NCBI GenBank assembly: GCA_041659805.1
Contig: JBAZXP010000001.1
Coordinates: 966,841 to 1,030,840 of the forward strand
DNA from: Microgenomates group bacterium
Lineage (GTDB): Bacteria; Patescibacteriota; Microgenomatia; Daviesbacterales; UBA10151
Direction: 5' to 3'
DNA: 64,000 nt
Of the stretch, positions 7,720-26,920 are shown in pieces; positions within the stretch are counted from its first letter, which is position 1, and every line of letters starts with the position of its first letter. The translations under genes were made by a program, and so were the position numbers. Below the pieces are notes generated by a model. The model saw nothing but the letters and a program-made list of their open reading frames with translations, had not been told where the DNA came from and made no database searches.

Positions 7720-8272
7720 GAAACCAAAAATGAATGTGCCTTACTTGTTTGAATGTTCCTCTTACCAATTTTGTATCAATATTAATCGGTCTTTCAAATA
7801 AAATTACCTTATCAGGAGTTAGTCTTAAAACAGTCATCACTTTGGCTATAAATTCAGCCGCAATAATCCTTTCTGTTGCCGGACTTGCCAACCAGATTAA
7901 AGATTGATTTAAGTCATCTGGTAACCAATATGGAAATAAATTTGGAGCTGCAGCCATATCAGAAGGTCCCAAAAAATCTTTTACCTGTCTTTCCAAATCT
8001 TCTTTTTTTTGTGCGTGATACCTATTATATTCATCTTCTGTCTTTATAGGCAAAAGTTCCAAATGACGTATTTTATCTCTGTCTTTTAAAAGTGAGTTAA
8101 ACTTTGGATAAATTTTGGGATCAATAATTCCCGGTTTTTTAAATTCTCTTCCCAATAAAATCTCAGGTGGTGTCATAATTCCCAAAACATCATCAATTAA
8201 TTCTTTATCCACAGATATATCCTCCAAATCAGTTGTTCTTAAAATATTTGGAATAAATAAAAGTTCTTTCAT
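7709..8272 (-). CDS. hypothetical protein, C-terminal H-x-H-x-hydrophobic motif (possible HIT/GalT-like)
   Basis: 187 aa ending ...VRHIHFWFPTS; 4-bp overlap with the upstream PurA-like gene implies co-translation. Confidence 0.3.
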   Translation of the reverse strand: MKELLFIPNILRTTDLEDISVDKELIDDVLGIMTPPEILLGREFKKPGIIDPKIYPKFNSLLKDRDKIRHLELLPIKTEDEYNRYHAQKKEDLERQVKDFLGPSDMAAAPNLFPYWLPDDLNQSLIWLASPATERIIAAEFIAKVMTVLRLTPDKVILFERPINIDTKLVRGTFKQVRHIHFWFPTS

Positions 8273-9579
8273 ATTATATTTATTGTTTTATCCCCCGCTT
8301 TAGGCCCACTTGATGTTATAACTATAGGTACTTTAATTTGATCCTGAATAAATTGAACATATTCAGATGGAGGCAAAATATAATTTGGTGTGCATTTTTG
8401 TAACATTTCCCCCAATTTTTGCTGATAAATATTATCTGTTGGGTGCATAACTTCAATTTTTTGTAATATTTCCCCTGTCTCAGAGGTATAAGAATTACAT
8501 ATTTTCCATTCCGGCATGCTCTTTAATTTGTCCAAATGAGTTAAGGCAATCCCATCAACAGACCCCAAAACTTCAACAGCATACCTGAGGGTAACTAAAT
8601 CAAAAAACCCTACTCTAAAATTACCCTGCCAGGGATTAGTTAAATTACTGGTATCAGGCAAGAGCTTAGATAATGTTTTATCTTCTGTGGGAAAAGGGCC
8701 TGCTCCGTGACGCGTAGCATATGCCCTGATTACTCCCAATTTGTATACTTCCCCCTGATATCTACTACACCAAATAAGCTCATCAGCATTTCCAAATGTA
8801 GTATCCCCGTGGGTAATATATGGGTAAAATCCATATTCTTGATCTAGAAGCACACCTTGTGCTCCTTCAAAAATAGCAGTTCCTTTCTGATCTAATATCT
8901 TTTTTAAATAATGTCTGTCCACAATTTTAGCAACAGAAATAAATTCTTTATATAAATCCAAAGTGTAGTTTATAGCCTCAGGACTGTCTAAAATCTTCAA
9001 CTCTCTTTTTACTAAATCTGATTCAGGAAAGCTTCCTCTTAAATTCTTTATCTTTTTCAGTTGAACATCACGAAGAAATCGTAATTTCTTTTTTGCCGTT
9101 TTTGCGTCAAGTAAATCTTCCATCATCAAAGTTTCTCTGCCAAACTTTAAATAATCTGCCATAGCTTCACTGACCCCTCTGCCTGTACTGCTTGTTGTAT
9201 TTAAAGTCAGCAATCTGTTTGATGTCTGATGAAAAGGAGTGATCACAGGACATTCCCCTTCTATAGTAGTTTTTTGGAAAGCATCATTAATTCCCATTTC
9301 CTTTAAACCCCGTTCTTCTTTTAGCATGCTCAAAGGATCAACCAGCATAAATCTGGAAAGATGAGTCTTTGTGCCACCTAAAGTTCCACTGCCAAATTGG
9401 GAAAAAATATGCTGATGTCCTTCAGGACTGATTACATTATGCCCGGCCTGAGCACCTCCGTTATAACGGATCACAGTATGTGCATTAAATTCCCTGCACA
9501 AAAAATCAGTAAGGCTGCCTTTTCCGGCGTCGCCGAAACCTAAATCTGCTATTTGTATTACTTTTTGCATTTCTTTCAT
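8269..9579 (-). CDS. purA: adenylosuccinate synthetase family protein (divergent PurA)
   Basis: PurA hallmarks present: GDAGKGS P-loop (canonical GDEGKGK), GGAQAGHNV, TGRG, FEGAQGVLLDQEYGFYPYIT, AYATRHGAGPFPTE, THLD, ITSSGP; 436 aa. Confidence 0.65.
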   Translation of the reverse strand: MKEMQKVIQIADLGFGDAGKGSLTDFLCREFNAHTVIRYNGGAQAGHNVISPEGHQHIFSQFGSGTLGGTKTHLSRFMLVDPLSMLKEERGLKEMGINDAFQKTTIEGECPVITPFHQTSNRLLTLNTTSSTGRGVSEAMADYLKFGRETLMMEDLLDAKTAKKKLRFLRDVQLKKIKNLRGSFPESDLVKRELKILDSPEAINYTLDLYKEFISVAKIVDRHYLKKILDQKGTAIFEGAQGVLLDQEYGFYPYITHGDTTFGNADELIWCSRYQGEVYKLGVIRAYATRHGAGPFPTEDKTLSKLLPDTSNLTNPWQGNFRVGFFDLVTLRYAVEVLGSVDGIALTHLDKLKSMPEWKICNSYTSETGEILQKIEVMHPTDNIYQQKLGEMLQKCTPNYILPPSEYVQFIQDQIKVPIVITSSGPKAGDKTINII

Positions 9580-9601
9580 ATTTTTAAATATAATTACTTT
9601 C

Positions 9602-9632
9602 GGGGGAGAGCCCTTATGTTTGGGGCTCTCCC
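9602..9632 (-). terminator. GC-rich hairpin (GGGAGAGCCC-N9-GGGCTCTCCC) between the vWA stop and the PurA-like start; possible partial terminator/attenuator
   Basis: 10-bp G/C stem in an AT-rich genome, 24 nt before the PurA-like ATG; a moderately U-rich tract follows on the minus strand. Confidence 0.4.
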
Positions 9633-9638
9633 GCCTTG

Positions 9639-10631
9639 CTACAGAAGCCTATATTTAGGCTTATCTGTATCTATCGGACCTAAATTGGTCCCACTATCAC
9701 CTTTAACTAACCTGCCATGCACTGGCACTACTGCGTTCCTGACAGCCAAGATTGTACTCTTACTGACTCCAAACTCTGCCAGGTTTTTCGAACCTGCGTC
9801 AAGATCAGTTGTCCCTTCGGATAAACCGATTTGTAGAGCAATTGTCTCGCAAACAGCCTCAGGATCTTCAAGCTGCAGGACATTTTGTCCTAAAAGCTTT
9901 CTCCAGGAAGCTAAAACTTCCGGGTCTCTCCCATTGCTAGCTGCAGTAGGCAGAATGTAAAAGGTCTCGTATCGTTTTTTCACTTCTTCAAATATCTCAA
10001 CAGTTGAGATATTTTCCTGAAGTGTGTCACCGATCACGTCAGCAACCTCTCTGGCTTTAACATTCGGATAAACCATTTCATCGCCGATAATAAACAAATA
10101 ACCTTTGTGTCTTCGTATATTCCAGCAATCAATGTCCGTATGTCTGGCCATAAAGTAGGTAGCCAACTCATAGCTTTCTGTTTTTTGAGCACCTCCGCCA
10201 CCTTCCAAAAGAATTTTTTCCAAATTCTCATCCATCCTGTTATCAGATTCAAACTGACCAATCTGAAGCGGAACACTGTCGCAGGTTGCGTCCCCAATGG
10301 CACCGAACAAAAACTGTGGATGCTCAGCCCAACCTTTCCGTACTACCAACCCGTTTAATTCCCCCAACTTTTTCTGGAAAATTTGGGGCAGAGTTCTCAT
10401 AGAACCCGTCACATCAAACAGTGTTGCAATGGCTAAAGAATATGCATGTTCTGCACTATCCCGACTTTCACGGAACCTGATACCTTTTGGATCAAGATTC
10501 GGATGAGCTTTCCACTTATCGCGGGAATACCGCTTAGTGTAATCATCATAGTCAAAAACCTTTTTTCCACTGGCTACTCTGGCCTTCTCACGTTCAGAAA
10601 AAACGTCTGTTGTCCATTCACCACCTCCCAT
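9639..10631 (-). CDS. von Willebrand factor A (vWA) domain protein
   Basis: MIDAS motif DVTGSM (DxSGS), downstream GGGGAQ and FIIGDE; likely start is MGGGEW at 10631, preceded by AAGGAGGTGA; the 9639..10673 ORF may be over-extended. Confidence 0.6.
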   Translation of the reverse strand: MGGGEWTTDVFSEREKARVASGKKVFDYDDYTKRYSRDKWKAHPNLDPKGIRFRESRDSAEHAYSLAIATLFDVTGSMRTLPQIFQKKLGELNGLVVRKGWAEHPQFLFGAIGDATCDSVPLQIGQFESDNRMDENLEKILLEGGGGAQKTESYELATYFMARHTDIDCWNIRRHKGYLFIIGDEMVYPNVKAREVADVIGDTLQENISTVEIFEEVKKRYETFYILPTAASNGRDPEVLASWRKLLGQNVLQLEDPEAVCETIALQIGLSEGTTDLDAGSKNLAEFGVSKSTILAVRNAVVPVHGRLVKGDSGTNLGPIDTDKPKYRLL

Positions 10632-11757
10632 TTTTATCACCTCCTTTCGCATTTTTTGGCATACTAAATACATGAAATTTCTTAGGACCCCATAAATCTA
10701 CAATCATAGAATCAAATTCTTCGAGTAATCCCCAGGCATCTTTTGGTCTTTGTTTCGCGGGCAACAAACAACCTCTGAAAAAAGCCTTTATTTTGGGATG
10801 AATATCACTTGGCAATTCCCCTAATTGAGGGTTACCTCCCAAAAGGTAAATCATATTTTTAGCTCCCAGATAAATATCCAATCCGGGACTCACCGGTTCT
10901 TTTTTGAATACTTCAGGCGGATACCAACTCTCCCAGTCACCGGATAGCGCCTGTAACCGTCCGCCTGTTGGATCTTTTTCAATTACAGAATATGACCATT
11001 CATTTATAACCAGTCCGTGTTTTTCCGGTTGGACAAAAAGATTTTGCGGCAGGGCAGCCCCATGAATTAAATTATTTTGATGTGCAAATCCCAACCCTAC
11101 TAATACTCTTCTGAATATCCATGCCATATCTTTTTGATCAATTCCTTTCGGATAAGCGTTTTTTACATCAACAAAAGAAAAAAGCTCATCCGGCCTTTTA
11201 GAAAAAGCATTAATGTTTTTGCGGATATGGTTGCTGTCCTCAAAAATAAAAGAATCAATTAAACCGGGAAAATACGGACGGAAATTATCAAAATTATCTA
11301 CTTCAGCCAATTTGCGAAGCATTTTAGCCTCATTTTCTACAAATTCGTTATCAAGAGGACTTTTTGCAACTTTAAATATGGCTGGAATATTAGTGCCACC
11401 TTCTTTATAGGTAGCCCCATGAACATTGCAAAAATCTGTTTGTGAGAAGGAATCAAAAATTTCATATTCCCTGACTCTGGTTCTGATGGTTAGCAAAACA
11501 TCCGGTGGAATTTGACCATAAGTTCCCAATTTTATTTTTTCCTGAGCTCTTTCCCAAAGCCTGGTCAGATTAATAAAGGCATCTTGAGCCTCTACTCCAC
11601 CATTTAAATCCGGATGAGTGAGCTTGCTTAATTGTCTGTATGTGGAAAGTACAGTTTTCAGAGGGTCGGCTGCTTCGCCTAATCCACCAAAGACATCTTC
11701 AGGATGTTTGGCATTGATAATTTTTTGTGTTATTAAATCTGACTCATTTTCTTTCAT
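10618..11757 (-). CDS. J-domain (DnaJ-like, HPD) fused to a degenerate protein-kinase-like (pseudokinase) domain
   Basis: YRQLSKLTHPDLNGGVEAQDAFINLTRLWE is a J-domain helix II-III with HPD. A kinase-like fold follows: AIFKVAK (beta3 Lys), ENEAKMLRKL (alphaC Glu), LIHGAALPQNLFV replacing HRDLKPEN (no catalytic Asp), no DFG, WYPPE replacing APE. Likely start is the ATG at 11757 preceded by GGAGGA, rather than the GTG at 11775. Confidence 0.55.
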   Translation of the reverse strand: MKENESDLITQKIINAKHPEDVFGGLGEAADPLKTVLSTYRQLSKLTHPDLNGGVEAQDAFINLTRLWERAQEKIKLGTYGQIPPDVLLTIRTRVREYEIFDSFSQTDFCNVHGATYKEGGTNIPAIFKVAKSPLDNEFVENEAKMLRKLAEVDNFDNFRPYFPGLIDSFIFEDSNHIRKNINAFSKRPDELFSFVDVKNAYPKGIDQKDMAWIFRRVLVGLGFAHQNNLIHGAALPQNLFVQPEKHGLVINEWSYSVIEKDPTGGRLQALSGDWESWYPPEVFKKEPVSPGLDIYLGAKNMIYLLGGNPQLGELPSDIHPKIKAFFRGCLLPAKQRPKDAWGLLEEFDSMIVDLWGPKKFHVFSMPKNAKGGDKNGRW

Positions 11758-11763
11758 GTTGTA

Positions 11764-11826
11764 AGTGTCCTCCACACACTAACTATAGTGTAACTATTAC
11801 ACAAAGGTTAGTGTTTTGTCAACACC
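11764..11826. promoter_or_regulatory. three tandem palindromic operator-like sites AGTGT-N7-ACAC(T/A/C) at 11764, 11787 and 11810 (23-bp phasing), overlapping the RBS/start and a TTGACA -35 on the minus strand
   Basis: AGTGTcctccacACACT (perfect), AGTGTaactattACACa, AGTGTtttgtcaACACc; the third spacer is the reverse complement of TTGACA, followed by a TGTGTAATAG-like -10. Confidence 0.5.
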
Positions 11827-12124
11827 CTATTTTGATTCTTGACGATTTATTATTAGAGCCCTACAATACCAATCTAGAAGACTGCTCTTTAAAAAATGAG
11901 TAAAGTTGATTTAGATTATTATGATAGGTTAGAGGTTAGCCCCCGTGCCAGAGCCTCTGTGGTGAACTTTGCTTAAAAGGAGATTTACTGGCAACAGCTG
12001 TGAATGTTTTTCAGGCTTTTAAATCAGTTTATCCTGATCCAACAACCCGCGAAAAACAAAATCCCAATCTATTCAGGTTACCCCAGAAATTATTCCGTTC
12101 GATGTTTAAGTAATACCTGAAATT

Positions 12125-15499: not shown

Positions 15500-15503
15500 A
15501 TAT

Positions 15504-17859: not shown

Positions 17860-18378
17860 ATGATTTCCTTAGATTCAGAAGTCCGACAAACCACTCTTCA
17901 TACCAAAGGTACCTCCCAAAGACATGTTGCAGAAACTCTGGCCAAAGTTGCAGGTTTCCCAAATGGTAGTGTAATCTTGCAGGCAATAGATATTGAAAGA
18001 TTTTTTCCTTTTGACCACAAAAAAGAAGAACTGGCTAAAAACAGTTTTTGTATTGTGGGATTTCATAAGAACAACCCTGGTAAACCCGGGAAATACACCA
18101 ATAGAACAGGGGCACCAGATTTCCAGGTAACAGAATTGGTGGGTCAAAAAGGTCTTCCCTCACCTACTTACTTGATAGAAATTAACTCCACCATTGATGA
18201 AAATGTACTAAGCAAATTGGAAGCAGAGATTATCGAATCAAGCCAAAAGAGACCCTTTCTTGCAAAATTATTTCGCCGTTTACCTAAAAACCCTGATTTT
18301 GTTTATAGTGGATACAGATCCAAAAGCCCGTTGGTTCTGGACTTGGACTACCCAATCGCTCCCGTACAAAGCAGATAA
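17860..18378 (+). CDS. hypothetical protein
   Basis: 172-aa ORF divergent from the HExxH-vWA gene; no motif. Confidence 0.35.
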   Translation: MISLDSEVRQTTLHTKGTSQRHVAETLAKVAGFPNGSVILQAIDIERFFPFDHKKEELAKNSFCIVGFHKNNPGKPGKYTNRTGAPDFQVTELVGQKGLPSPTYLIEINSTIDENVLSKLEAEIIESSQKRPFLAKLFRRLPKNPDFVYSGYRSKSPLVLDLDYPIAPVQSR

Positions 18379-18989: not shown

Positions 18990-19028
18990 TATTTGACTTT
19001 TTTGGGTTTTCAGCGTATCTTTGTGTGT

Positions 19029-19721
19029 ATGAGTGACACTATCAAACTTCCGGAAAAATATAATTTGAACGATTATCAGTGCCCTTCTGTAACTGTTGAT
19101 ATCCTTGTTTTTACAATCGAAGCTTCTGAACTAAAAGTATTACTCATCAAACGGGCAATCGAGCCTTTTAAAGACGAATGGGCTTTACCGGGAGGATTTA
19201 TAAAGATGGATGAATCCTTAGAAGCAGCAGCCTTAAGAGAATTAGTACAGGAAACAGGTGTAAAAAATGTTTATTTGGAACAACTTTATACTTTTGGGGA
19301 TACCAACAGAGATCCCAGAAGCAGAGTTATTACTGTTGCCTACTTCGCTCTTGTTCCAAGCGCTAAATTGGATTTGAAAGCATCAACAGACGCAGCTGAT
19401 GTGGCCTGGTTCCCTATAAAAAAACTTCCCAAATTAGCTTTTGATCACAAAAAAATTATTGATTATGCAATGAACAGACTAACAAGCAAGATTGAATATT
19501 CTAATATTGTATATGGATTACTTCCGATTAAATTCCGTCTAAGTGAGTTGCAAAAGGTATATGAAGTTATTTTAAGTAAAAAGATGGATAAAAGAAATTT
19601 CCGTAAATGGATACTTTCCTTAGGGTTACTTGAAGCCACGGGAGAAAAAGACACTGATGGCGCCCACAGACCTGCAGAACTTTTTAAATTTAAAAAAAGA
19701 GAACCAGTTCTATTTGACTAA
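19029..19721 (+). CDS. nrtR: Nudix-related transcriptional regulator (NrtR-like): N-terminal Nudix domain and C-terminal helical/winged-helix-like region
   Basis: Near-canonical Nudix box GGFIKMDESLEAAALRELVQETGV (one Glu to Gln change) followed by an ~80-aa C-terminal domain containing KRNFRKWI; sits next to a full NAD salvage operon. Start is the ATG at 19029; the ORF track uses TTG at 18993. Confidence 0.5.
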   Translation: MSDTIKLPEKYNLNDYQCPSVTVDILVFTIEASELKVLLIKRAIEPFKDEWALPGGFIKMDESLEAAALRELVQETGVKNVYLEQLYTFGDTNRDPRSRVITVAYFALVPSAKLDLKASTDAADVAWFPIKKLPKLAFDHKKIIDYAMNRLTSKIEYSNIVYGLLPIKFRLSELQKVYEVILSKKMDKRNFRKWILSLGLLEATGEKDTDGAHRPAELFKFKKREPVLFD

Positions 19722-19760
19722 AACGAATCCTGACCTTTTTTGTGATCAGGATTTATCGTT
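19722..19760. terminator. bidirectional intrinsic terminator between convergent nrtR-like (+) and pncA (-)
   Basis: AATCCTGAcC-tttttt-GtGATCAGGATT stem-loop flanked by T-runs on both strands. Confidence 0.6.
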
Positions 19761-19768: not shown

Positions 19769-20473
19769 TCATTGAGCCTTACCATAAATCTCAATGATTC
19801 TTGGAATTTCTCCAATGCTGATAATCTTAGCTCCAGCTTCTTCCATCTCTAATAAGGCCTGCTTTGCTCCTTCTGGAGTAATACCTGATATTGCATCTTC
19901 TACGATGTACGTCTGTATACCGCGCTTTTGCATCCCTACGACTGCAGCCAGATCACAATACTCAGTCGCAACATAATAAACAATAGCTGCTCTTACTCCT
20001 GCTTCTTTGAGAACAGTTTCAACAGCAGGGTTTGTAAAAACATCATAATGTTGTTTTTCAAAGATTATATCTTTGCCTGATCTTGCAATCTCTGCCAACT
20101 CATCTGGACTATAACGTCTGAAGTTGTCTCCCTCAGCAATCTTATTTTCAACAATTAAAGCTGAATCAGATGCTACTTCAGGAATAAAATCTATGCCAAA
20201 TGTTCCGTCTTCATTTAACTGATTGTATTTCCAATCCATGCAATGAAGCGGAAAAGGGCCTCCGTTATCGATAAGCTCAGGATCATCCATAAAATGTCTG
20301 TCCCTACTCTTAAATCTCCTGATACCTGCATCTTTTAGCATTTTTCCGACAGAAGCAGCATTTTCTCTGATTTCTTCAGCACCAGGAACGTATAATCTTC
20401 CGTCATTTTTTCTCATGAAATCATTCTGTGCATCAACTTCATAACCTATTAATTCTTTTGACATTTTTCTCAC
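19769..20473 (-). CDS. pncA: nicotinamidase/pyrazinamidase (isochorismatase-like cysteine hydrolase)
   Basis: LIGYEVDAQNDFM N-terminal signature and ~230-aa isochorismatase-family length, in an NAD salvage operon. Confidence 0.65.
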   Translation of the reverse strand: MRKMSKELIGYEVDAQNDFMRKNDGRLYVPGAEEIRENAASVGKMLKDAGIRRFKSRDRHFMDDPELIDNGGPFPLHCMDWKYNQLNEDGTFGIDFIPEVASDSALIVENKIAEGDNFRRYSPDELAEIARSGKDIIFEKQHYDVFTNPAVETVLKEAGVRAAIVYYVATEYCDLAAVVGMQKRGIQTYIVEDAISGITPEGAKQALLEMEEAGAKIISIGEIPRIIEIYGKAQ

Positions 20474-20479
20474 CTCCCT

Positions 20480-21385
20480 TCAAGGTAAAATTGCAACTCT
20501 AAGCGGGTGTTCGTGAGCTACAGAGATACTGACTTTACTTCCTTCTTCAAGGTTGAATGAAAAACTATCGTCACTTGGATCAGGATCAAAATCTATTTCT
20601 GTATCTTTCCCTAGAGAAAAAATTGTTAACTCCTCACCTAAATCCAAATCCCCAATTTCCAAAAATCCTGAATCAAGATCTTTTTCTCGGCAAACAAAAC
20701 GGGCATGAGGGGCAGTTCTGGGAAAATGAGAATATTTTTCCATAACTTCATCTTTCCAGTGTCCGACAATATTTCTGTACCAACCTGTAAGCCCTGAACC
20801 TGTGGCAATAACCAAACCGGAATTTTTTTGCTCGTCATTTATTCCGCGATAATTAATAATACTTCTGCTAATCCCTCTGTTTTTCAATTCACCGACAAAG
20901 ATTTCTGATAGAGCAAAAAACGGCAAAAGCTCTCCGTCTAAAACTGCCTGTAATCTTGTCCATTTTTCTGTTTCAAAGGAATTTTTATCCAGACAATCAC
21001 GGAGGTAGTCAATATGTTCAGGTTTAAAAGACAAAATCCCACCTTTAGAAGTTTCCGGATCAGAATTTATTCCAACAACCAGCTGGTCTCCGGTCACAAA
21101 ACGTGACACATATTGCAAATGATTATCTCCTCCGGGACTAAAAATAATGTTATATTTTTTAGCGACATCTACATTAAAATCATCGCGGTGGATTATTGGC
21201 ACGTTTAAAGCTTTGCCTAATTTTTCAATGTTCTCTATCTGTCTGTAATGACTGGCAATTTTTTTATCAGCATCTGCCCCCTGCTTTTTCCACAAATTAA
21301 TCTGATCCTGCATAGAAATATTGGAAGTTTTCATTTTCCATTCAACTACAGTGAGTTTTGGTACGATTACAGCCTCAACGCTCAT
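20480..21385 (-). CDS. nadK: NAD kinase-like (ATP-NAD kinase family, divergent GGDN motif)
   Basis: IIFSPGGDNHLQY (vs GGDGT), VVGINSDPETSKGGILSF (vs NxGxLGFL), ATGSGLTGWYRN (vs SGSTAY). Confidence 0.5.
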   Translation of the reverse strand: MSVEAVIVPKLTVVEWKMKTSNISMQDQINLWKKQGADADKKIASHYRQIENIEKLGKALNVPIIHRDDFNVDVAKKYNIIFSPGGDNHLQYVSRFVTGDQLVVGINSDPETSKGGILSFKPEHIDYLRDCLDKNSFETEKWTRLQAVLDGELLPFFALSEIFVGELKNRGISRSIINYRGINDEQKNSGLVIATGSGLTGWYRNIVGHWKDEVMEKYSHFPRTAPHARFVCREKDLDSGFLEIGDLDLGEELTIFSLGKDTEIDFDPDPSDDSFSFNLEEGSKVSISVAHEHPLRVAILP

Positions 21386-22320
21386 TTTATAAATCTCCTT
21401 TTCCCGATATAATCTTTAATGAATCGATTATGATCAAACGCTAGATTATCAGGTATTTGATCCCAAGGGAATACTTTAATATCAACGGCATCATCACCAG
21501 CTCTTAAGACTCCTCCATCAATCCTTTTTTCATAAACCATAGTGACGTAGTGACCTCTCGGATCTCTATCGGGATCTGAATATTGTCTGAATTGATCTTC
21601 TAAGGAAACTTCAATATCAAGATTTGTTTCTTCTTTTGCTTCCCTAACAGCAGCACCTTCAACAGTTTCCTTTCCATAATTAATATAACCTCCGGGGATT
21701 GCCCATTTTAAGGAATTCGGATCGCCTAATTTTTCTTTTCTCTGGATTAAAACAATACCCTCATCTCTATAATTAAGAATTACATCTGCTGTAACTGCAG
21801 GGTTTAGAAAACGCTCCCTACCGCTGATGCGCTGCTCTCCTTTGATCTTTTTTAGATGAGCAATCACTTCTTCTGGTACCAGGTCTTCCCACTCTCCACC
21901 GTTTTTAATCATTTCCCGAACATCTGTTGCGCAAATCGGTAAATCATGTATCGGCTTTCTGATTTCAATCCCGTATCCGTCAAATATTCTGCTTACCCAA
22001 TTATTTCCTGTGTAAACTATGCTGAATCTTTCAGGACTAAGGATATCGATTAGCTTTCTCCATTTTTCATCATTGTAAACATCGGGAATACCGAAAACTG
22101 CAAATGGTTTTTCCATTCTCTTTTCCAGAGTTGCTTTAATCATTTGCAAGCGTTCATTAAAACTGAAAGGGTTGTGCTCTGTATTGCCTTCCTGAGAAGA
22201 TCCAATTCCGATTAATATTTTTGCAACATCTGGTGCTCTTTCAATTTGTTTGACAACAGAAAGATGCCCCAAGTGAAATGGTTGAAATCTACCTACAACT
22301 AATGCATTTTCTTGTTTCAT
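21382..22320 (-). CDS. nadM: bifunctional NadM-type NMN/NaMN adenylyltransferase with C-terminal Nudix (ADP-ribose pyrophosphatase) domain
   Basis: ALVVGRFQPFHLGH (archaeal-type NMNAT HxGH) plus C-terminal Nudix box AIPGGYINYGKETVEGAAVREAKEETNL; likely start is MKQENAL at 22320. Confidence 0.75.
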   Translation of the reverse strand: MKQENALVVGRFQPFHLGHLSVVKQIERAPDVAKILIGIGSSQEGNTEHNPFSFNERLQMIKATLEKRMEKPFAVFGIPDVYNDEKWRKLIDILSPERFSIVYTGNNWVSRIFDGYGIEIRKPIHDLPICATDVREMIKNGGEWEDLVPEEVIAHLKKIKGEQRISGRERFLNPAVTADVILNYRDEGIVLIQRKEKLGDPNSLKWAIPGGYINYGKETVEGAAVREAKEETNLDIEVSLEDQFRQYSDPDRDPRGHYVTMVYEKRIDGGVLRAGDDAVDIKVFPWDQIPDNLAFDHNRFIKDYIGKRRFIK

Positions 22321-22324
22321 TTTT

Positions 22325-23953
22325 TTACCTCCTAAATTCATGACTAATCGGGATTCTTCTACCAATACCGAATGATTTCGGAGTAACTTTTATGCCGGGA
22401 GCAGCTTGTCTTCTTTTGTGTTCATTACGGATAATTAAATCCCAATATTTTTCGACCAACGGACGTGGGTATTCTTTTAAAACTTCTTCTATAGTTGCCC
22501 TATCCTCTATTAAACGATTTACAATTGGCACAATCAGGTCATAATCGGCTCCAAGGCTCCCTTCATCTGTTTGATTCTCACTAAGCTCTGCTGAAGGCTC
22601 TTTAATAATTGAATTTCGGGGAATCACTTTTCTATAAAGATTAGCCAACTCATAAACTTTTAATTTATCAACGTCAGATATAGCAGCCAGGCCTCCTGCC
22701 ATATCTCCATAAAGGGTACAGTAACCAAGCGCTGTTTCTGTTTTATTTCCTGTGCTGATTACTAAAGCATTTTCCTCATTTGCCTGTGCCATTAAAATCA
22801 TTCCCCTGATTCTTGCCTGAATATTTTGATTAGTTAAGTCTTTTGGATCTTTTTGCAAAACTTGTGATATTTCACCAACTAAAGTTTTTCGTGTTTCTTC
22901 GATCGGAATGATCTGAAAATTAATCCCTAAATTTTCAGATAGTTTTCTTGCGTCATCCACACTTCCGGAACTTGAAATTCTGGATGGCATTGTAATACCT
23001 GTTACGTTTTCTTTGCCCAAGGCTTGAGTTGCCAAAGCAGCTACTACTGCTGAATCGATCCCCCCAGAAAGTCCAATAAAAGCCTTATTAAAATTTGATC
23101 TTCTGAAGTATTCTTTAATCCCTAAAACCAAAGCCTTATTTAATTGATCAATTGAATCAGTATTCTGAGGTAATATTTCCTTTGGATTATCCAAATCTAC
23201 TTTAACGCTATCTTCCTCAAACGCCTTCCCCAGACCTAATAATTTTCCATCTGCCCCTAAAACTATACTTTGACCGTCAAAAACCAATTGTCCGTCATAA
23301 CCGTCCTGTGAGCCAACTAAATTGGTATAGATAAAAGGCTTTTTGTATGTGTTAACAACTCTTTCAATAAGATTTTTTCTGACATTAAATTTATCTAGAT
23401 AAAATGGAGAAGCAGAGATATTTATTAAAACATCTGCTCCTTTTTCAACCAACTCAGATGTAACATTTTTTTGATAACCATTACTCCAAAGGTCTTCACA
23501 AATTTCTATACCTAATTTCTTTCCACAAACTTCATATAATTTGTGTGACCTGTTGGCAGAAAAATATCTGGTTTCATAAAAAACATCATAGGTTGGCAGA
23601 AGTGTTTTATCTTCTATTCCCAAAATTTTTCCATTTTGTAAAATCGCTGCGCTATTAAATCTGATTGGTGTGCCATCAGGCCCAATGATATTTGGGTCTG
23701 AATCAACAAAACCCACAATTGCTGTAATTCCTTCTGTTGCGGCAACAATCCGAGATAAAGCTTCTTTATTTTGAGAAATATAATCAGAATAAAGCAACAA
23801 ATCCATAGACATATATCCTGGGATTGTCAGCTCTGGAAAAACTATCAAATCAGATTTGTTTAATTTTGCCTGCTCAATATAAGAAATTATTTTTTGGGTA
23901 TTTTTTTCTATACACCCAGGATCTGTATTAATTTGTGCAAGTTCTAATTTCAT
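22325..23953 (-). CDS. nadE: glutamine-dependent NAD+ synthetase (nitrilase domain + NAD synthetase domain)
   Basis: N-terminal CN-hydrolase domain (FPELTIPGY), C-terminal GLSGGIDSAVVAALA PP-loop; 542 aa. Confidence 0.8.
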   Translation of the reverse strand: MKLELAQINTDPGCIEKNTQKIISYIEQAKLNKSDLIVFPELTIPGYMSMDLLLYSDYISQNKEALSRIVAATEGITAIVGFVDSDPNIIGPDGTPIRFNSAAILQNGKILGIEDKTLLPTYDVFYETRYFSANRSHKLYEVCGKKLGIEICEDLWSNGYQKNVTSELVEKGADVLINISASPFYLDKFNVRKNLIERVVNTYKKPFIYTNLVGSQDGYDGQLVFDGQSIVLGADGKLLGLGKAFEEDSVKVDLDNPKEILPQNTDSIDQLNKALVLGIKEYFRRSNFNKAFIGLSGGIDSAVVAALATQALGKENVTGITMPSRISSSGSVDDARKLSENLGINFQIIPIEETRKTLVGEISQVLQKDPKDLTNQNIQARIRGMILMAQANEENALVISTGNKTETALGYCTLYGDMAGGLAAISDVDKLKVYELANLYRKVIPRNSIIKEPSAELSENQTDEGSLGADYDLIVPIVNRLIEDRATIEEVLKEYPRPLVEKYWDLIIRNEHKRRQAAPGIKVTPKSFGIGRRIPISHEFRR

Positions 23954-25125
23954 GCAGCTAACCCCAACCTTTCTAAAGTTTCCCTAACTATCGATTTGTC
24001 ACCGGAGATCTTTCCTAAATCGTCTGAAAGTTTTACTACAGCTATTTGATCCAAACTTTGTGGCTTGGTAATATGAAACATTTTAATTACCATATTTAAA
24101 GGAATTCGACCAACATCATTAGTGAAATTTGTACCAATTCCAAATAACGTATTAATTCTGCCTTCGTTATATTTGAGAATTTCCAAAGCCCGTGGAATAT
24201 CTAAAGCATCAGAGTATAGGGCTGTAAAATCCATTGGATTTAAGCCAAGTTTATTTTGAATATGATTAATAATTTTATCTGTCCAGGCTTCTGGATTACC
24301 GGAATCCTGTCTTAAGGTCTTGAAAATTGCTGCCTTCTCAGACGTGTAAGACTTTAGAAAATTGTCAGTTGTATAAGTATCTGTTAGAGCTGTTGCCAAA
24401 CTTCCATTAAATTCTTTTGCCCAAATTTCCATAGCCATCTGATTGGCTCTTTCTACTCCATATATTCCAGACAACCCTTGTACCCATTCATGAGCAAAAG
24501 TCCCTTTTGGAGATAAGTCATACTTCATCGCCAATTCAACGTTACTGGTTCCTAAAAGCGAAGCTCCTCCATCTCTTTTTAAAATCGATATGAGTTCGTC
24601 ATGCACAAAATAAGAAGCCCTTCGTCTAGTTCCAAATTCCAAATATCTGGCGCCATTAGCTAGAAATATTTGAGCTTTTTTTGAAGCCTTTTCTTGCCAA
24701 CCTTCTACTGGTGGTTGCCCTGTTTCTTGAAAATAAAGTTCAGAAATAGTTGCCATCAAAGGAACTTCCCAATAAATTGCTTTGTGCCAAGGTCCTTCTA
24801 TATCAACAGATAAATCTCCTCCGTCTTGTTTTATAGAAACTTCTTCCGGACTAAAACGGTATTTAGAAAACCAATTAAGATAATCAGCTGCAAGATATGG
24901 GCAGCCAACTTCTAAAAACTTTCTTTGTTGCTCAGTCAGAGATAAGTCTGCCATTAAATCTACCTGCTCTTGTAGTTTTTGACCGAATCCATTAGGAAAT
25001 TCTGTCTTTGCACGGTTAATAAACTTAAACCCTGCATCAATATCTGCAAAGTTATGAAAAACTGCCTGACCCATTGTCAGCTTGTATAAATCGTTATCTA
25101 ATAATGTATGTATAATTCTTTCCAT
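23950..25125 (-). CDS. pncB: nicotinate phosphoribosyltransferase
   Basis: N-terminal LLDNDLYKLTMGQAV matches the PncB signature (DxYKxTM); 391 aa. Confidence 0.75.
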   Translation of the reverse strand: MERIIHTLLDNDLYKLTMGQAVFHNFADIDAGFKFINRAKTEFPNGFGQKLQEQVDLMADLSLTEQQRKFLEVGCPYLAADYLNWFSKYRFSPEEVSIKQDGGDLSVDIEGPWHKAIYWEVPLMATISELYFQETGQPPVEGWQEKASKKAQIFLANGARYLEFGTRRRASYFVHDELISILKRDGGASLLGTSNVELAMKYDLSPKGTFAHEWVQGLSGIYGVERANQMAMEIWAKEFNGSLATALTDTYTTDNFLKSYTSEKAAIFKTLRQDSGNPEAWTDKIINHIQNKLGLNPMDFTALYSDALDIPRALEILKYNEGRINTLFGIGTNFTNDVGRIPLNMVIKMFHITKPQSLDQIAVVKLSDDLGKISGDKSIVRETLERLGLAA

Positions 25126-25166
25126 TTTTTATTTTTCCTTTCTTGTTTATGTATTTTTATAAATGT

Positions 25167-26156
25167 TTAAACAGTAAAGAAATATTTTGACTGTTTTAGC
25201 GATTCATCTATTAATTGAATAGCTGAATTTAAACGGGTTTTTTGAGAACCTTCCAAAACTACAAAATTCTTTTTTGACTTCTTAAGTTCTTCAATAAACC
25301 TCACATGCATTTGATGACGGATATGTTCCCCATCCCTTGTACCATCTTGAACAAACGGGATTTCATCCCCTGTTAAAAGATAAAGATCGTAACTATGTTT
25401 TTTAGAAACTGCTTTCACTTCCGGTGAAATTTTTCCGACATATCGTTCATTCCAAAGAGTAGTTGCAAAAGCATCTGTATCACAAATAAGTAGTCTGTTT
25501 GCTCTTCTGGCAAGAATATCCTCCAACCTGTTTTGCTCTTTTGCTATATGTACGAATTCTTTGTCTACCCACATATTCCCTTCAGGAGAAAACATCTTCG
25601 CCTCGTAATATATTCTTCCGTATTCGGGTACCCAACTCGTTTCATAATGTTTTGCTAAATCTTTTGCCAAGGTTGTGGTACCGGTAGATTCTGCTCCCAG
25701 AACACATATTTTTTTAACAAAATATGCCCTTACATTTGGTTCTAGATATTTCCAATATTTAAGAGGATTTTGTCTTATCATTGTTCCGGAACAAGGAACG
25801 TGCACTCTTTCTCTATCCACTAAAATATGTTTGGATCCCATGAATTTTGCATAAGGCTCACCATAATCCTCAGAAGTAAAAACTAAATCAGGGACGAAAC
25901 CCAACCATTCGATTGTTTTCTTAGCCCAGATTTTTGAATCATCTGGATCAAGATCGCTTTCATCGATTACCATAACTTTTACCTTTGGATGAATTTCTCT
26001 TATCCATTTTGCCCGTAATTTTGGTGAAATTGTTTGCGCTTTTTTCCCACAAACAATAACAGTTAGATGATCAACTTGAGAGCTTGCTGTATCTATCAAG
26101 TATTTATGACCCAAGTGTGGTGGATAAAATTTTCCGATTACCAATCCTTTTATCAT
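25167..26156 (-). CDS. nadR: NadR-type bifunctional NMN adenylyltransferase / ribosylnicotinamide kinase (no HTH domain)
   Basis: GKFYPPHLGHKYLI (HxGH nucleotidyltransferase) and a C-terminal P-loop kinase domain GAESTGTTTLAKDLA; start taken at MIKGLVIG (26156), which abuts the pnuC stop. Confidence 0.7.
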   Translation of the reverse strand: MIKGLVIGKFYPPHLGHKYLIDTASSQVDHLTVIVCGKKAQTISPKLRAKWIREIHPKVKVMVIDESDLDPDDSKIWAKKTIEWLGFVPDLVFTSEDYGEPYAKFMGSKHILVDRERVHVPCSGTMIRQNPLKYWKYLEPNVRAYFVKKICVLGAESTGTTTLAKDLAKHYETSWVPEYGRIYYEAKMFSPEGNMWVDKEFVHIAKEQNRLEDILARRANRLLICDTDAFATTLWNERYVGKISPEVKAVSKKHSYDLYLLTGDEIPFVQDGTRDGEHIRHQMHVRFIEELKKSKKNFVVLEGSQKTRLNSAIQLIDESLKQSKYFFTV

Positions 26157-26794
26157 TTTGTTCCTCCCATTAATGACTTGCGCCATTGCATAAGCCCTAC
26201 TATGCACATACAAAGGAATAGCGCATAAAGAACGCTTGTCAGGTACAAGCCCTTGTAGGCATATAGCCAAATGTAAATTACATCAGCAGAAATCCAAACA
26301 TACCAATTCTCAAGTATTTTTCGTGTTAATAAGTACTGCGCTACCAAGCTCATCACCGTGGTTAAAGCGTCCCAAAAAGGTGCTGAATCGTTGATTTGTC
26401 GCAGATATACAGTCATTCCGAATGTTGTAAGAATTGTTATCATTAGGAGTATTAACACGGTATTGATCCCTACGTGAGAAACTTTAAGTTCGGTTTTATT
26501 CTCCCCACCTTTTAGCCACCAGTACCAACCCAGGATTCCTAAAACTATATAGACAACCTGAAGTCCCATATCTGCAAAAAGCCTGGCTTGTAAAAATAAA
26601 ACAATAAAGAAAACATTGTTGGCGATCCCAATAGGCCAATTCCAAATATTTTGTTTTACAGTCAACCAAACACAAGCTGCACCAGTTATAAATCCAAGTA
26701 CTTCAGTTACCCCCATTGGTAAAATACTTTTCCAAGATGTATACAGCAAGGCTGCTGAAACTAAACTAAAAATTGTTAATTCTTTTTTGTTCAT
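26153..26794 (-). CDS. pnuC: nicotinamide riboside transporter PnuC
   Basis: 213-aa, 7-TM protein with WNWPIGIANNVFF; classical pnuC-nadR adjacency. Confidence 0.65.
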   Translation of the reverse strand: MNKKELTIFSLVSAALLYTSWKSILPMGVTEVLGFITGAACVWLTVKQNIWNWPIGIANNVFFIVLFLQARLFADMGLQVVYIVLGILGWYWWLKGGENKTELKVSHVGINTVLILLMITILTTFGMTVYLRQINDSAPFWDALTTVMSLVAQYLLTRKILENWYVWISADVIYIWLYAYKGLYLTSVLYALFLCMCIVGLMQWRKSLMGGTK

Positions 26795-26815
26795 ATAATT
26801 TATTTCTTTTGTATT

Positions 26816-26877
26816 AGTGTCTTTCTTACACTTACTTAGTGTATGATATACCCTTTAGTTAGTGTTGTCAATACACT
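26816..26877. promoter_or_regulatory. promoter of the pnuC-nadR-pncB-nadE-nadM-nadK-pncA operon with three tandem AGTGT-N7-AC(A/C)CT operator-like palindromes (22-23 bp phasing)
   Basis: AGTGTctttcttACACT (26816-26832), AGTGTatgatatACcCT (26838-26854), AGTGTtgtcaatACACT (26861-26877). The third spacer is TTGACA on the coding strand, a TATCAT -10 lies inside the second box and the first box sits at the presumed TSS. Confidence 0.5.
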
Positions 26878-26920
26878 ACTTTATAACAAAGGGATTTGTG
26901 TGGTTACTTTTAGAATTAAC

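What the first reader, a model, noticed from the sequence alone, without database searches (positions are those of the whole stretch)
18993..19721. NrtR-like Nudix regulator encoded beside, but convergent to, the NAD operon
Nudix box is nearly canonical (RELVQETGV), so the protein may retain ADP-ribose pyrophosphatase activity like some NrtRs; the C-terminal ~80 aa (…KRNFRKWILSLGLL…) would be the DNA-binding domain. Its own upstream region lacks the AGTGT-N7-ACACT box, so it is probably not autoregulated.
Basis: partly seen in the sequence, partly recalled or inferred. Interest (0 to 1): 0.5.

Follow-up and report, generated by a model that had tools for sequence, protein, structure and literature searches.

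The report
Autoregulated NrtR repressor of NAD salvage

Summary
The ORF is real and is a full-length NrtR-family regulator. It scores 79 bits on Pfam NUDIX and 87.5 bits on NrtR_WHD. Its AlphaFold model matches the solved BtAraR and SoNrtR-DNA structures at TM 0.75-0.80. It lies tail-to-tail with a seven-gene NAD-salvage operon (pnuC-nadR-pncB-nadE-nadM/Nudix-NADK-like-pncA).

- **Start codon.** The true start is ATG 19029. The proposed "TTG start" at 18993 is the -35 hexamer of the gene's own promoter.
- **Autoregulation.** An operator TGTGT-N7-ACACT lies at 19024-19040, just after the -10 and enclosing the ATG. It is the best non-training PWM hit in the 64 kb. The same layout recurs in relatives from several phyla, so autorepression is likely.

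The Nudix box deviates at one position (REUXEE to RELVQE). The Gln is fixed in its 13-sequence clade, and sister clades are canonical. Residual ADP-ribose hydrolysis cannot be decided in silico.

Triple operators cover -35, -10 and +1 of two promoters, that of pnuC and that of a J-domain/kinase-like, vWA-fold, PurA-like operon. In metagenomes that triad sits next to an NrtR-family gene in 28 of 34 loci.

Verdict: a new member of a known kind. The triad link is the only potentially new element.

The parts
19029..19721 (+). nrtR coding sequence (230 aa plus stop). Revised start is ATG 19029, not TTG 18993.
   Evidence: ORF list. Frame check. M1 is nearly invariant in the 61-sequence alignment. 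NCBIfam NF050029 aligns from profile position 10 at residue 21 of the 242-aa form.
19101..19463 (+). Nudix-fold effector domain (aa 25-145)
   Evidence: Pfam PF00293, 79 bits. The AF2 model and Foldseek match the SoNrtR Nudix domain with ADP-ribose, 3gz8.
19194..19262 (+). Nudix signature GFIKMDESLEAAALRELVQETGV = GX5EX7REUXQEXGU. Gln74 (codon 19248-19250) replaces the first Glu of the EE pair.
   Evidence: Sequence. Column counts are 13 Q and 48 E among 61 homologues. The other 8 signature positions are invariant in the Q clade.
19512..19691 (+). NrtR-type winged-helix DNA-binding domain (aa 162-221). The recognition helix DKRNFRK is at 19587-19607.
   Evidence: Pfam PF21906, 87.5 bits, and AraR_C, 49.9 bits. 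The model shows H171-182, H188-197 and a beta-hairpin 201-221. D187 K188 R189 N190 R192 K193 R214 are identical to the BtAraR residues that read GTGT.
18993..19021 (+). Predicted nrtR promoter: -35 TTGACT (18993-18998), 17-nt spacer, -10 TATCTT (19016-19021)
   Evidence: Consensus scan, 9/12. The same hexamers and spacing occur in L081 and L083. TTGACA-16/17-TAxxxT directly precedes the box in L001, L022, L029, L031, L037 and L074.
19022..19042 (.). Predicted NrtR operator of nrtR itself: tgTGTGTATGAGTGACACTat. It encloses the ATG and lies 1-2 nt after the -10.
   Evidence: PWM trained without this site scores it 15.4 bits, the best non-training hit in the window. Half-sites are conserved while the spacer varies in L081 and L083.
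19726..19753 (.). Hairpin between the convergent nrtR and pncA genes, a likely bidirectional terminator
   Evidence: Terminator-like scan: 10-pair stem with a T-run.
26814..26879 (.). Three phased NrtR operators (26814-26834, 26836-26856, 26859-26879) upstream of pnuC. On the minus strand the -35 TTGACA lies in the spacer of the third box and the -10 TATCAT in the spacer of the second.
   Evidence: Promoter scan gives 11/12 matches. The same triple arrangement lies upstream of pncB in L081 and L082; the L083 contig ends after two of these boxes.
19769..26794 (-). Target operon 1, NAD salvage and synthesis: pnuC, nadR-like (NMNAT/RNK), pncB, nadE, nadM-Nudix, NAD-kinase-like, pncA
   Evidence: ORFs with overlaps or gaps of 41 nt or less. 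Family hits.
11762..11828 (.). Three phased NrtR operators (11762-11782, 11785-11805, 11808-11828). On the minus strand they enclose the -35 TTGACA, the -10 and the Shine-Dalgarno GGAGGA of the next gene.
   Evidence: Promoter scan 10/12. Conserved upstream of the orthologous gene in L081.
7709..11757 (-). Target operon 2: J-domain/kinase-like protein (10618-11757), vWA-fold protein (9639-10673), divergent PurA-like enzyme (8269-9579) and an unknown 187-aa protein (7709-8272)
   Evidence: Family hits. PDB kinase and J-domain hits. AF2 plus Foldseek give a vWA fold. Linkage to nrtR in other genomes.

Best explanation
The gene encodes an NrtR-family transcriptional repressor in a Microgenomates-group (CPR) bacterium.

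**DNA binding (inferred).** A dimer would bind 21-bp palindromes with consensus TTAGTGT-N7-ACACTAA through the winged-helix domain. The recognition helix DKRNFRK is identical to the one that reads GTGT in the BtAraR-DNA crystal structure.

**Targets (inferred from site positions).**
- Three operators, spaced 22-23 bp apart, cover the -35, -10 and +1/SD regions of two promoters. One drives the seven-gene NAD-salvage operon that starts with pnuC. The other drives a J-domain/kinase-like, vWA, PurA-like operon. Bound repressor would therefore exclude RNA polymerase.
- A single, weaker operator sits directly after the -10 of nrtR's own promoter and encloses its ATG. This would give negative autoregulation, probably of a leaderless or nearly leaderless mRNA.

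**Effector (inferred by homology).** ADP-ribose, the product of NAD cleavage, would bind the Nudix domain and release the repressor. That would induce NAD salvage, including the NadM-Nudix ADP-ribose pyrophosphatase domain that would remove the signal.

**Shown here:** domain architecture, fold, sites, their positions and their conservation. **Inferred:** binding, the direction of regulation, the effector and any catalytic activity.
For: **Family and fold**
- Pfam NUDIX 79 bits and NrtR_WHD 87.5 bits.
- NCBIfam NF050029 'ADPR responsive transcriptional repressor' is the top hit, E 1.5e-58.
- PDB sequence hits are BtAraR 1e-45 and SoNrtR 1e-38, both full length.
- AF2 pLDDT 86.4, pTM 0.82.
- Foldseek gives 5bs6 E 3e-24 and the SoNrtR-DNA complex 3gz6_A at TM 0.76/0.80, rmsd 3.1.

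**DNA specificity**
- BtAraR K179/R180/N181/K184/R205 define the GTGT half-site (PMC4666351).
- The aligned residues K188/R189/N190/K193/R214 are identical here and invariant in 60-61 of 61 homologues.

**Sites**
- GTGT-N7-ACAC occurs 6 times against 0.28 expected, and 0 of 100 shuffles reach that count.
- The sites fit the family's 21-bp palindrome with a GT-N7-AC core (PMC2330246).
- The promoter hexamers lie inside the operator spacers.

**Own site**
- PWM score 15.4 bits, the best non-training hit in the window.
- 16 of 43 core matches in 1.01 Mb of relatives' loci fall within -200..+60 of the nrtR start.
- A -35/-10/box layout precedes nrtR in Daviesbacteria, Falkowbacteria, Saccharibacteria and unassigned Patescibacteria MAGs; a Collierbacteria MAG has the box but no recognisable -35.
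- A box with the ATG in its spacer precedes nrtR in 9 metagenome loci.
- The MsNrtR precedent shows an auto-repressor released by ADP-ribose.

**Effector**
- Equivalents of the SoNrtR ADP-ribose contacts are present: Y11, Y16, R42 and R97. R97 is Gly in arabinose-binding AraR.

**Context**
- The convergent nrtR/pncA arrangement is conserved in L081-L083 (75-88% identity); in L084 (72%) the gene facing nrtR has no isochorismatase hit.
Against: - There is no experimental datum for this protein.
- The NCBIfam equivalog score is 198, below its cut-off of 400.
- The closest solved relative by sequence is the arabinose sensor BtAraR, not an ADP-ribose sensor.
- Two SoNrtR phosphate contacts differ here: N43 to I44 and K76 to E75.
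- The own operator scores lower than the six target operators (15.4 against 17-23 bits). It has a T instead of an A at one flank.
- The own operator is absent in the 72-75% relatives L082 and L084.
- Its 3' half-site overlaps codons 3-4, so part of its conservation in the closest relatives could reflect coding constraint.
- The promoter call alone is not above the shuffle expectation.
- Another NrtR-family regulator, NdnR, responds to NAD rather than ADP-ribose.
Confidence: 0.78

Rival explanations
1. Bifunctional NrtR. As well as repressing transcription, the Nudix domain still hydrolyses ADP-ribose, as NuhA of Synechococcus PCC 7002 does. The sensor would then destroy its own inducer and reset itself.
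For: - Eight of nine signature positions are canonical, and these eight are invariant across the 13-member Q clade despite 64-91% pairwise identity.
- 48 of 61 close homologues carry a canonical EE pair, and most of them have the whole REUXEEXGU box canonical.
- In the family, an intact signature correlates with activity. NuhA is active, and Slr1690 is inactive but gained 600-fold on restoration of the signature (PMC2330246).
- In NUDT9 the first and third Glu of REUXEE are the ones highlighted as structurally or catalytically critical, not the second, which is the one replaced here (PMC6461439).
Against: - The signature is not intact. The family literature treats even single replacements as suspect.
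- Glu to Gln removes a metal-ligand charge.
- Inactive human TRPM2 NUDT9-H also has QE at this pair, although it carries other changes too.
- The operon already encodes a NadM-Nudix domain with REAKEE, which makes a second ADPRase redundant.
- All NrtRs assayed so far that have altered boxes were inactive.
Confidence: 0.3
2. The box at 19024-19040 is a chance or coding-driven match, and nrtR is constitutively expressed.
For: - There is one mismatch to AGTGT-N7-ACACT, and the PWM score is lower than at the target operators.
- The site is absent in L082 and L084.
- The 3' half-site lies in codons Asp3-Thr4.
- Another PWM hit of similar score (6133-6153, 14.9 bits) lies inside an ORF and is probably chance.
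Against: - Only about 0.28 core matches are expected per 64 kb, and this one falls on the start codon directly after a -10.
- In L022, L037, L074, L025, L029 and L031 the box lies wholly upstream of the coding region, so coding constraint cannot explain it.
- Core matches are about 18-fold enriched near nrtR starts.
- The pattern recurs in soil-metagenome loci.
Confidence: 0.12
3. The effector is not ADP-ribose. It could be NAD acting as co-repressor, as reported for NdnR of Corynebacterium glutamicum, or another NAD-derived nucleotide.
For: - NdnR responds to NAD (PMC4666351 introduction).
- Two SoNrtR alpha-phosphate contacts are not conserved (I44, E75). The retained acidic box residues suggest metal-bridged nucleotide binding that differs from SoNrtR.
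Against: - The adenine contacts (Y11, Y16) and the ribose/phosphate contacts (R42, R94, R97, H140) are conserved.
- ADP-ribose is the effector in the three NrtRs tested: So, Sy and Ms.
Confidence: 0.2
4. It is an AraR-like sugar-responsive regulator, or simply an ADP-ribose pyrophosphatase with no regulatory role.
For: - The best PDB hit by sequence and fold is BtAraR.
- Sources label homologues 'NUDIX hydrolase' or '8-oxo-dGTP diphosphatase'.
Against: - No pentose-utilisation genes were found among the ORFs examined near the gene or its operators.
- The AraR cleft-filling residues Gly89, Phe36 and Leu67 are Arg97, Ile44 and Glu75 here.
- A complete winged-helix domain is present, with DNA-reading residues and matching operators at NAD genes.
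Confidence: 0.03

Closest known systems
Shewanella oneidensis NrtR (SO1979; PDB 3GZ5, 3GZ6, 3GZ8)
   Same: - Nudix plus winged-helix architecture, with full-length fold match (TM 0.76-0.80).
- Operator is a 21-bp palindrome with a GT-N7-AC core.
- It controls NAD-salvage genes.
- Several ADP-ribose contact residues are conserved (Y10/Y11, F15/Y16, R41/R42, R98/R97).
   Different: - About 40% identity.
- The SoNrtR Nudix box is badly degraded (RKLAEKTAV) and the protein is inactive. Here only one position deviates.
- K76 and N43 of SoNrtR are E75 and I44 here.
- SoNrtR controls a single prs-nadV operon. Here there are two operons with triple operators plus an own site.
Bacteroides thetaiotaomicron AraR (BT0354; PDB 5BS6, 5DD4, 5DDG, 5DEQ)
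   Same: - Closest solved relative, at 37-38% identity.
- Identical recognition helix DKRNFRK and the wing Arg, which read GTGT.
   Different: - AraR senses L-arabinose, and its nucleotide cleft is filled by Tyr5, Phe36, Leu67 and Gly89. Here Arg97 and the acidic box residues are retained.
- The regulon here is NAD salvage, not arabinose utilisation.
NuhA (Synechococcus sp. PCC 7002) and the Enterococcus faecalis protein 2FML: NrtR-family members with an intact Nudix signature
   Same: Nudix plus NrtR winged helix with a canonical or near-canonical signature. NuhA is an active ADP-ribose pyrophosphatase.
   Different: The window protein has Gln at the first Glu of the EE pair. Activity is untested. 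No operator was found for Enterococcus in the 2008 study.
Mycobacterium smegmatis NrtR (MSMEG_3198)
   Same: An experimentally shown auto-repressor that is released from DNA by ADP-ribose.
   Different: - It is divergent to nadABC (de novo pathway).
- Its operator is GTTTTCGA-N7-TCGAAAAC.
- It has three Nudix-box substitutions and no activity.
Nudix-HTH regulators of ARG-centred ADP-ribose systems (Aravind group, Viruses 2022)
   Same: An NrtR-like sensor predicted to hold a variable operon off until ADP-ribose appears. vWA proteins are among the accessory components. The Flavivirga locus L039 combines such genes with the vWA/PurA-like pair.
   Different: The window's second operon has no ADP-ribosylglycohydrolase, Macro domain or phosphatase. 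The J-domain/kinase-like, vWA, PurA-like triad is not described in that paper.

Membership tests
NrtR family (Nudix-related transcriptional regulators) | N-terminal Nudix-fold domain | tested here: met
   PF00293, 79 bits against a cut-off of 21.1. AF2 and Foldseek match the SoNrtR Nudix domain 3gz8.
NrtR family (Nudix-related transcriptional regulators) | C-terminal NrtR-type winged-helix DNA-binding domain | tested here: met
   PF21906, 87.5 bits against a cut-off of 27. The model shows a helix-turn-helix plus beta-hairpin wing at pLDDT 87-95. Foldseek alignment to the DNA-bound 3gz6_A spans 206 columns.
NrtR family (Nudix-related transcriptional regulators) | 21-bp palindromic operators with a GT-N7-AC core in promoters of target genes | tested here: met
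   Seven sites of the form TTAGTGT-N7-ACACTAA. The core occurs 6 times against 0.28 expected. The sites overlap the -35, -10 and +1 regions. Family definition from PMC2330246.
NrtR family (Nudix-related transcriptional regulators) | Genomic and regulatory association with NAD metabolism genes | tested here: met
   Adjacent to pnuC-nadR-pncB-nadE-nadM-NADK-like-pncA, with operators upstream. Conserved in L081-L084.
NrtR family (Nudix-related transcriptional regulators) | DNA binding relieved by ADP-ribose | not testable with these tools
   Only indirect evidence. Equivalents of SoNrtR Y10, F15, R41 and R98 are present, while N43 and K76 are not.
NCBIfam NF050029 equivalog (ADPR-responsive repressor 'NtrR') | Score at or above the curated cut-off of 400 bits | tested here: not met
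   198.1 bits. It is the best-scoring model, but the protein is not an equivalog of that model's seed group. It belongs to the wider family only.
Active Nudix hydrolases (ADP-ribose pyrophosphatase) | Intact signature GX5EX7REUXEEXGU | tested here: not met
   GFIKMDESLEAAALRELVQETGV has Gln74 in place of the first Glu of the EE pair. The other eight positions are canonical.
Active Nudix hydrolases (ADP-ribose pyrophosphatase) | Measured pyrophosphatase activity | not testable with these tools
   No single-site E-to-Q datum for this position was found in the library.
AraR subgroup of the NrtR family (arabinose sensors) | Nucleotide cleft closed by Gly89, Phe36 and Leu67, and a regulon of arabinose-utilisation genes | tested here: not met
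   The aligned residues are Arg97, Ile44 and Glu75. No ara genes were found among the ORFs examined near the gene or its operators.

The most novel reading that the evidence does not exclude
This NrtR may be the switch for a two-armed response to NAD cleavage.

Besides NAD salvage, it controls a conserved and so far undescribed module: a J-domain/(pseudo)kinase protein, a vWA-fold protein and a PurA-like GTP-dependent ligase whose aspartate/IMP loop is altered. Across phyla this module is normally encoded directly behind its own NrtR-family gene and NrtR boxes.

The module would then be a new ADP-ribose-induced system, either for stress or anti-phage defence or for nucleotide modification. NrtR-family regulators would have a second widespread regulon beyond NAD and pentose metabolism.
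Probability: 0.4. Interest if true: 0.65.

Novelty: new member of a known kind. Interest (0 to 1): 0.35.

Why it matters
On its own the gene adds little. NrtR regulators of NAD salvage, including autoregulated ones, have been known since 2008. Three things give it some value:
- It documents a complete NrtR circuit in a CPR (Microgenomates) genome: sensor, operators, promoters and a feedback enzyme. Regulation is rarely reconstructed in this group.
- The operator layout is unusually legible. The promoter hexamers, the SD and a start codon sit inside the variable N7 spacers, which makes it a clean model for repression by occlusion.
- It exposes a conserved link between NrtR-family sensors and an uncharacterised J-kinase/vWA/PurA-like triad. 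This is a testable lead into ADP-ribose-responsive systems.

Tried and rejected
- **TTG 18993 as start.** Rejected for three reasons. Homologues begin at the Met aligned with ATG 19029. The TTG is the -35 of a conserved promoter. My first guess of 19031 was out of frame.
- **Exact AGTGT-N7-ACACT search.** It misses the own site. A one-mismatch search and the GTGT-N7-ACAC core both find it.
- **PWM hit at 6133-6153 (14.9 bits).** It lies inside ORF 5838-6476 and has a degenerate half-site, so I treated it as chance. The one-mismatch hits at 29784 and 37875 were also treated as chance.
- **Co-transcription with the two upstream ORFs (17860-18989) as the main route of expression.** Not favoured. 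The closest relatives have different upstream genes on the opposite strand but the same promoter and box. The homologue of the 203-aa ORF lies elsewhere in L081.
- **Naming the second operon.** Pfam, NCBIfam, PADLOC and a PDB sequence search gave only weak kinase and J-domain hits and nothing for the 344-aa protein.
- **Huang et al. 2009 (SoNrtR structure paper).** Not held. I took the residue roles from the AraR paper instead.
- **Mutational data on the first Glu of the EE pair.** The literature search gave no single-site result. My recollection that the equivalent MutT E56Q mutant loses only about 10- to 100-fold is unverified and was not used.
- **Strict core search in DPANN, Blastocatellia and Bacteroidota loci.** It found few boxes. 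Their operators may differ or lie elsewhere, and I did not pursue this.
Full report
**1. The observation**

The + strand carries an open frame from 18993 to 19721.

- Pfam places a NUDIX domain (79 bits) in the N-terminal half and the NrtR DNA-binding winged-helix domain PF21906 (87.5 bits) in the C-terminal 60 residues. The related AraR_C model is a weaker overlapping hit.
- The best NCBIfam model is NF050029, 'ADPR responsive transcriptional repressor'. It scores 198 bits, E 1.5e-58, but falls below its equivalog cut-off of 400.
- The gene ends 47 bp from the stop of a minus-strand isochorismatase-family gene (pncA, 19769-20473). A 10-bp-stem hairpin lies between them at 19726-19753.
- Upstream of pncA on the minus strand lie, with overlaps or gaps of at most 41 nt, an NAD-kinase-like gene, nadM-Nudix, nadE, pncB, a nadR-type NMNAT/ribosylnicotinamide kinase and pnuC.

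So the description 'NrtR-like, beside and convergent to the NAD operon' is correct. The operon is larger than pncB-to-pncA and starts at pnuC (26794).

**2. The start codon**

The TTG at 18993 is almost certainly not the start.

- In an alignment with 60 homologues of 210-235 aa, the Met encoded by ATG 19029 is the nearly invariant first residue. The NCBIfam profile also begins there.
- The bases 18993-18998 read TTGACT. Seventeen bases later comes TATCTT (19016-19021), a sigma-70-like promoter.
- That call is not significant on its own. However, the same hexamers at the same spacing precede nrtR in the 86-88% relatives L081 and L083, although the sequence further upstream and the neighbouring genes differ.
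- TTGACA-16/17-TAxxxT also precedes the gene in several more distant CPR genomes.
- There is no Shine-Dalgarno sequence between the -10 and the ATG, which are 7 nt apart. A leaderless or nearly leaderless mRNA is therefore inferred, not shown.

**3. The own operator**

Searching AGTGT-N7-ACACT with one mismatch gives nine hits against 1.3 expected. Searching the core GTGT-N7-ACAC gives six against 0.28 expected.

- Five core hits fall in two triplets, at 11764-11826 and 26816-26877.
- The sixth is TGTGTATGAGTGACACT at 19024-19040. It starts two bases after the -10 and encloses ATG 19029.
- A 21-bp weight matrix trained only on the triplets and on the orthologous sites of L081 ranks this site (15.4 bits) as the best non-training match in 64 kb. 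Base-shuffled copies give about one hit of 12 bits or more per window, at any position.

Comparative evidence is strong.

- In about 1.0 Mb of loci around 81 homologues, 16 of 43 core matches lie within -200..+60 of the nrtR start. About one would be expected.
- In L081 and L083 the half-sites are identical while the spacer differs.
- In L001 (Daviesbacteria) and L003 (Collierbacteria) the ATG again lies in the spacer.
- In L022, L025, L029, L031, L037 and L074 the box lies wholly upstream of the coding region, directly after the -10. This excludes a purely coding explanation.
- Nine soil-metagenome loci show GTGT-xxxATGA-ACAC at the start of their nrtR.
- The site is not universal. The 72-75% relatives L082 and L084 lack it.

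Autorepression has been demonstrated for M. smegmatis NrtR (PMC6800001). Stand-alone '#nrtR' units are listed in the founding paper (PMC2330246).

**4. The protein**

- An AlphaFold2 model built from the 61-sequence alignment has mean pLDDT 86.4 and pTM 0.82. It shows a Nudix alpha/beta sandwich followed by helices 171-182 and 188-197 and a beta-hairpin at 201-221.
- Foldseek against the PDB returns BtAraR (E 3e-24, TM 0.75-0.78) and S. oneidensis NrtR bound to DNA (3gz6_A, TM 0.76/0.80, rmsd 3.1 Å over 206 columns), then the E. faecalis protein 2FML and NadQ. Plain Nudix hydrolases match only the N-terminal half.
- The BtAraR-DNA structure attributes recognition of GTGT to Lys179, Arg180, Asn181, Lys184 and the wing residues Lys204 and Arg205 (PMC4666351). 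The aligned residues here are Lys188, Arg189, Asn190, Lys193, His213 and Arg214. They are invariant in 60-61 of the 61 homologues. This independently links the protein to the GTGT-N7-ACAC boxes.

**5. Effector and catalysis**

By sequence the protein is slightly closer to the arabinose sensor BtAraR than to SoNrtR. But the residues that close the nucleotide cleft in AraR (Gly89, Phe36, Leu67) are Arg97, Ile44 and Glu75 here. The SoNrtR residues that contact adenine (Tyr10, Phe15), phosphate (Arg41) and ribose/beta-phosphate (Arg98) have equivalents Tyr11, Tyr16, Arg42 and Arg97. The last two are invariant. A nucleotide effector, most simply ADP-ribose, is therefore likely but not shown. NAD, as reported for NdnR, cannot be excluded.

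The Nudix signature reads GX5EX7REUXQEXGU.

- Gln74 is shared by the 13 closest homologues (64-91% pairwise identity), in which all eight other signature positions are invariant.
- The remaining 48 homologues have a canonical EE pair, and most are canonical across the whole box.
- In this family an intact signature goes with high ADP-ribose pyrophosphatase activity (NuhA), and perturbed signatures go with none (Slr1690, SoNrtR, MsNrtR).
- I found no single-site data for this position. For NUDT9, the first and third Glu of REUXEE are the ones described as critical.

Residual activity is therefore possible. I put it at about 0.3.

**6. How the circuit most likely works**

At pnuC the three operators are centred 22-23 bp apart. 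On the transcribed strand the -35 TTGACA lies in the spacer of the distal box and the -10 TATCAT in the spacer of the middle box, an 11/12 promoter. The proximal box covers the start region.

The second triplet has the same design. TTGACA lies in box 3, the -10 in box 2, and the Shine-Dalgarno GGAGGA in box 1, 10 nt before ATG 11757. The triple arrangement recurs upstream of pncB in L081 and L082, and two of its boxes are visible before the contig ends in L083.

Bound repressor would thus occlude RNA polymerase. That is the family's known mode, but here it is an inference from position. The single, weaker own site would give milder negative feedback. Because the operon includes a NadM-Nudix protein with a near-canonical box (REAKEE), induction should also raise ADP-ribose hydrolysis and close a second loop.

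**7. The second target**

The 11762-11828 triplet precedes four genes:
- a protein with a sub-threshold J domain and a protein-kinase-like domain, whose catalytic loop reads HGA rather than HRD;
- a 330-344-aa protein with no Pfam family;
- a PurA-like protein, with Pfam 232 bits but NCBIfam purA 177-189 bits against cut-offs near 400;
- an unknown 187-aa protein.

The 330-aa protein has more than 5000 homologues at about 58% identity across phyla. One at 100% identity names the source as a Microgenomates-group MAG. Its AF2 model (pLDDT 79.9) matches vWA/integrin I-domains, and it carries a DVTGSM MIDAS-like motif.

The triad is linked to nrtR well beyond this window.

- Boxes precede the orthologue in L081.
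- L022 and L085 have nrtR-box-kinase-vWA-PurA in a row.
- L086 has two boxes upstream of the triad.
- In 80 metagenome loci found with the vWA protein, PurA-like follows in 46 of 46 loci with enough downstream sequence.
- In the 34 loci with enough upstream sequence, the kinase-like gene precedes in 32 and an NrtR-family gene precedes on the same strand in 28.
- In Flavivirga (L039) the vWA/PurA-like pair ends an nrtR-box operon that also encodes Prs-like, DUF4291, a metallo-beta-lactamase, Macro, ADP-ribosylglycohydrolase and Tpt1/KptA proteins.

That operon resembles the ARG-centred, Nudix-HTH-regulated systems proposed as anti-ADP-ribosylation defences, in which vWA proteins are accessory chaperones (PMC9503650). 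The triad itself does not appear in that paper, and no paper combining NrtR with adenylosuccinate synthetase turned up in the two literature searches I ran.

In the alignment to E. coli AdSS, the segment aligned to ATTGRRRRTGW reads LTNPWQGNFRVGF. This hints at a changed substrate. The role of that loop in aspartate binding is from my memory, not from a tool result.

**8. Comparison, novelty and verdict**

Every defining feature of the NrtR family that sequence analysis can test is met. Effector response and activity are untestable here. The narrow NCBIfam equivalog and the 'intact Nudix signature' criteria are not met.

This is a new member of a known kind, in a lineage (CPR) where such circuits are seldom described.

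The only element that might be new is the conserved association of NrtR-family sensors with the J-kinase/vWA/PurA-like triad. I followed this only far enough to show that it is real. Interest is 0.35 for the finding as given.

Noticed in passing
window 7709-11828 (minus strand); also L022, L039, L081, L085, L086, L087-L166: A J-domain/kinase-like, vWA-fold, PurA-like gene triad carries three NrtR boxes here. In other phyla it usually sits directly behind an NrtR-family gene: 28 of 34 metagenome loci with enough upstream sequence, with PurA-like following in 46 of 46. The vWA protein has no Pfam family, and the two literature searches run for this link found nothing.
   Followed up: partly
window 26814-26879 and 11762-11828: The triple operators are phased 22-23 bp apart. 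The promoter -35 and -10 hexamers, and at one promoter the Shine-Dalgarno GGAGGA, lie inside the variable N7 spacers of successive boxes. The layout is conserved upstream of pncB in L081 and L082 and partly visible at the contig end in L083.
   Followed up: yes
window 8269-9579 (minus strand): The PurA-like enzyme keeps the P-loop (GDAGKGS) and the TRxGAGPFPTE motif. The segment aligned to E. coli AdSS ATTGRRRRTGW reads LTNPWQGNFRVGF, and its scores are less than half the purA equivalog cut-offs. It is possibly a paralogue with a different substrate.
   Followed up: partly
L039 7989-15697 (Flavivirga algicola): nrtR is followed by a GTGT-N7-ACAC box and a nine-gene string: Prs-like, DUF4291, metallo-beta-lactamase, Macro, ADP-ribosylglycohydrolase, Tpt1/KptA, an unknown protein, the vWA-like protein and PurA-like. 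This is an ADP-ribose-processing cluster that shares the vWA/PurA pair with the window.
   Followed up: partly
window 20480-21385 (minus strand): A 301-aa gene inside the NAD operon has no Pfam hit and only a faint NAD-kinase match (25 bits against a cut-off of 219). It is conserved at this position in L081 and L083 but missing in L082, and a gene of similar size with no Pfam hit occupies the spot next to nrtR in L084.
   Followed up: no
window 12125-17771 (minus strand): A 1124-aa protein with a C-terminal AAA_5 (MoxR/dynein-type) ATPase is paired with a 755-aa protein that has a Gly/Gln-rich linker and a C-terminal vWA domain. The pair lies between the two NrtR-controlled operons. Its function is unknown.
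   Followed up: no
window 17860-18989 (+ strand): Two overlapping ORFs (172 and 203 aa) with no family hits end 4 nt before the nrtR -35. The 203-aa protein has a 45% homologue on the far side of the NAD operon in L081. Read-through into nrtR is possible, because no terminator was seen.
   Followed up: partly
window 6133-6153: A PWM match of 14.9 bits (AAAGTGTAATGAAAACCCATA) lies inside ORF 5838-6476. It is probably chance.
   Followed up: no
proteins P0006, P0007, P0010, P0022, P0032, P0035, P0037: Homologues at 57-64% identity in DPANN archaea (Woesearchaeota, Nanoarchaeota) and others are 360-400 aa long. They carry an extra region, some with PF22327 or PF14815 hits. These are NrtR-like proteins fused to an additional domain, in archaea.
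   Followed up: no
window 25167-26270 (minus strand): The listed nadR ORF overlaps pnuC by about 118 nt. Family alignments begin near residue 34-41, so the real start is probably the internal Met (MIKGLVIGKF...) close to the pnuC stop.
   Followed up: no
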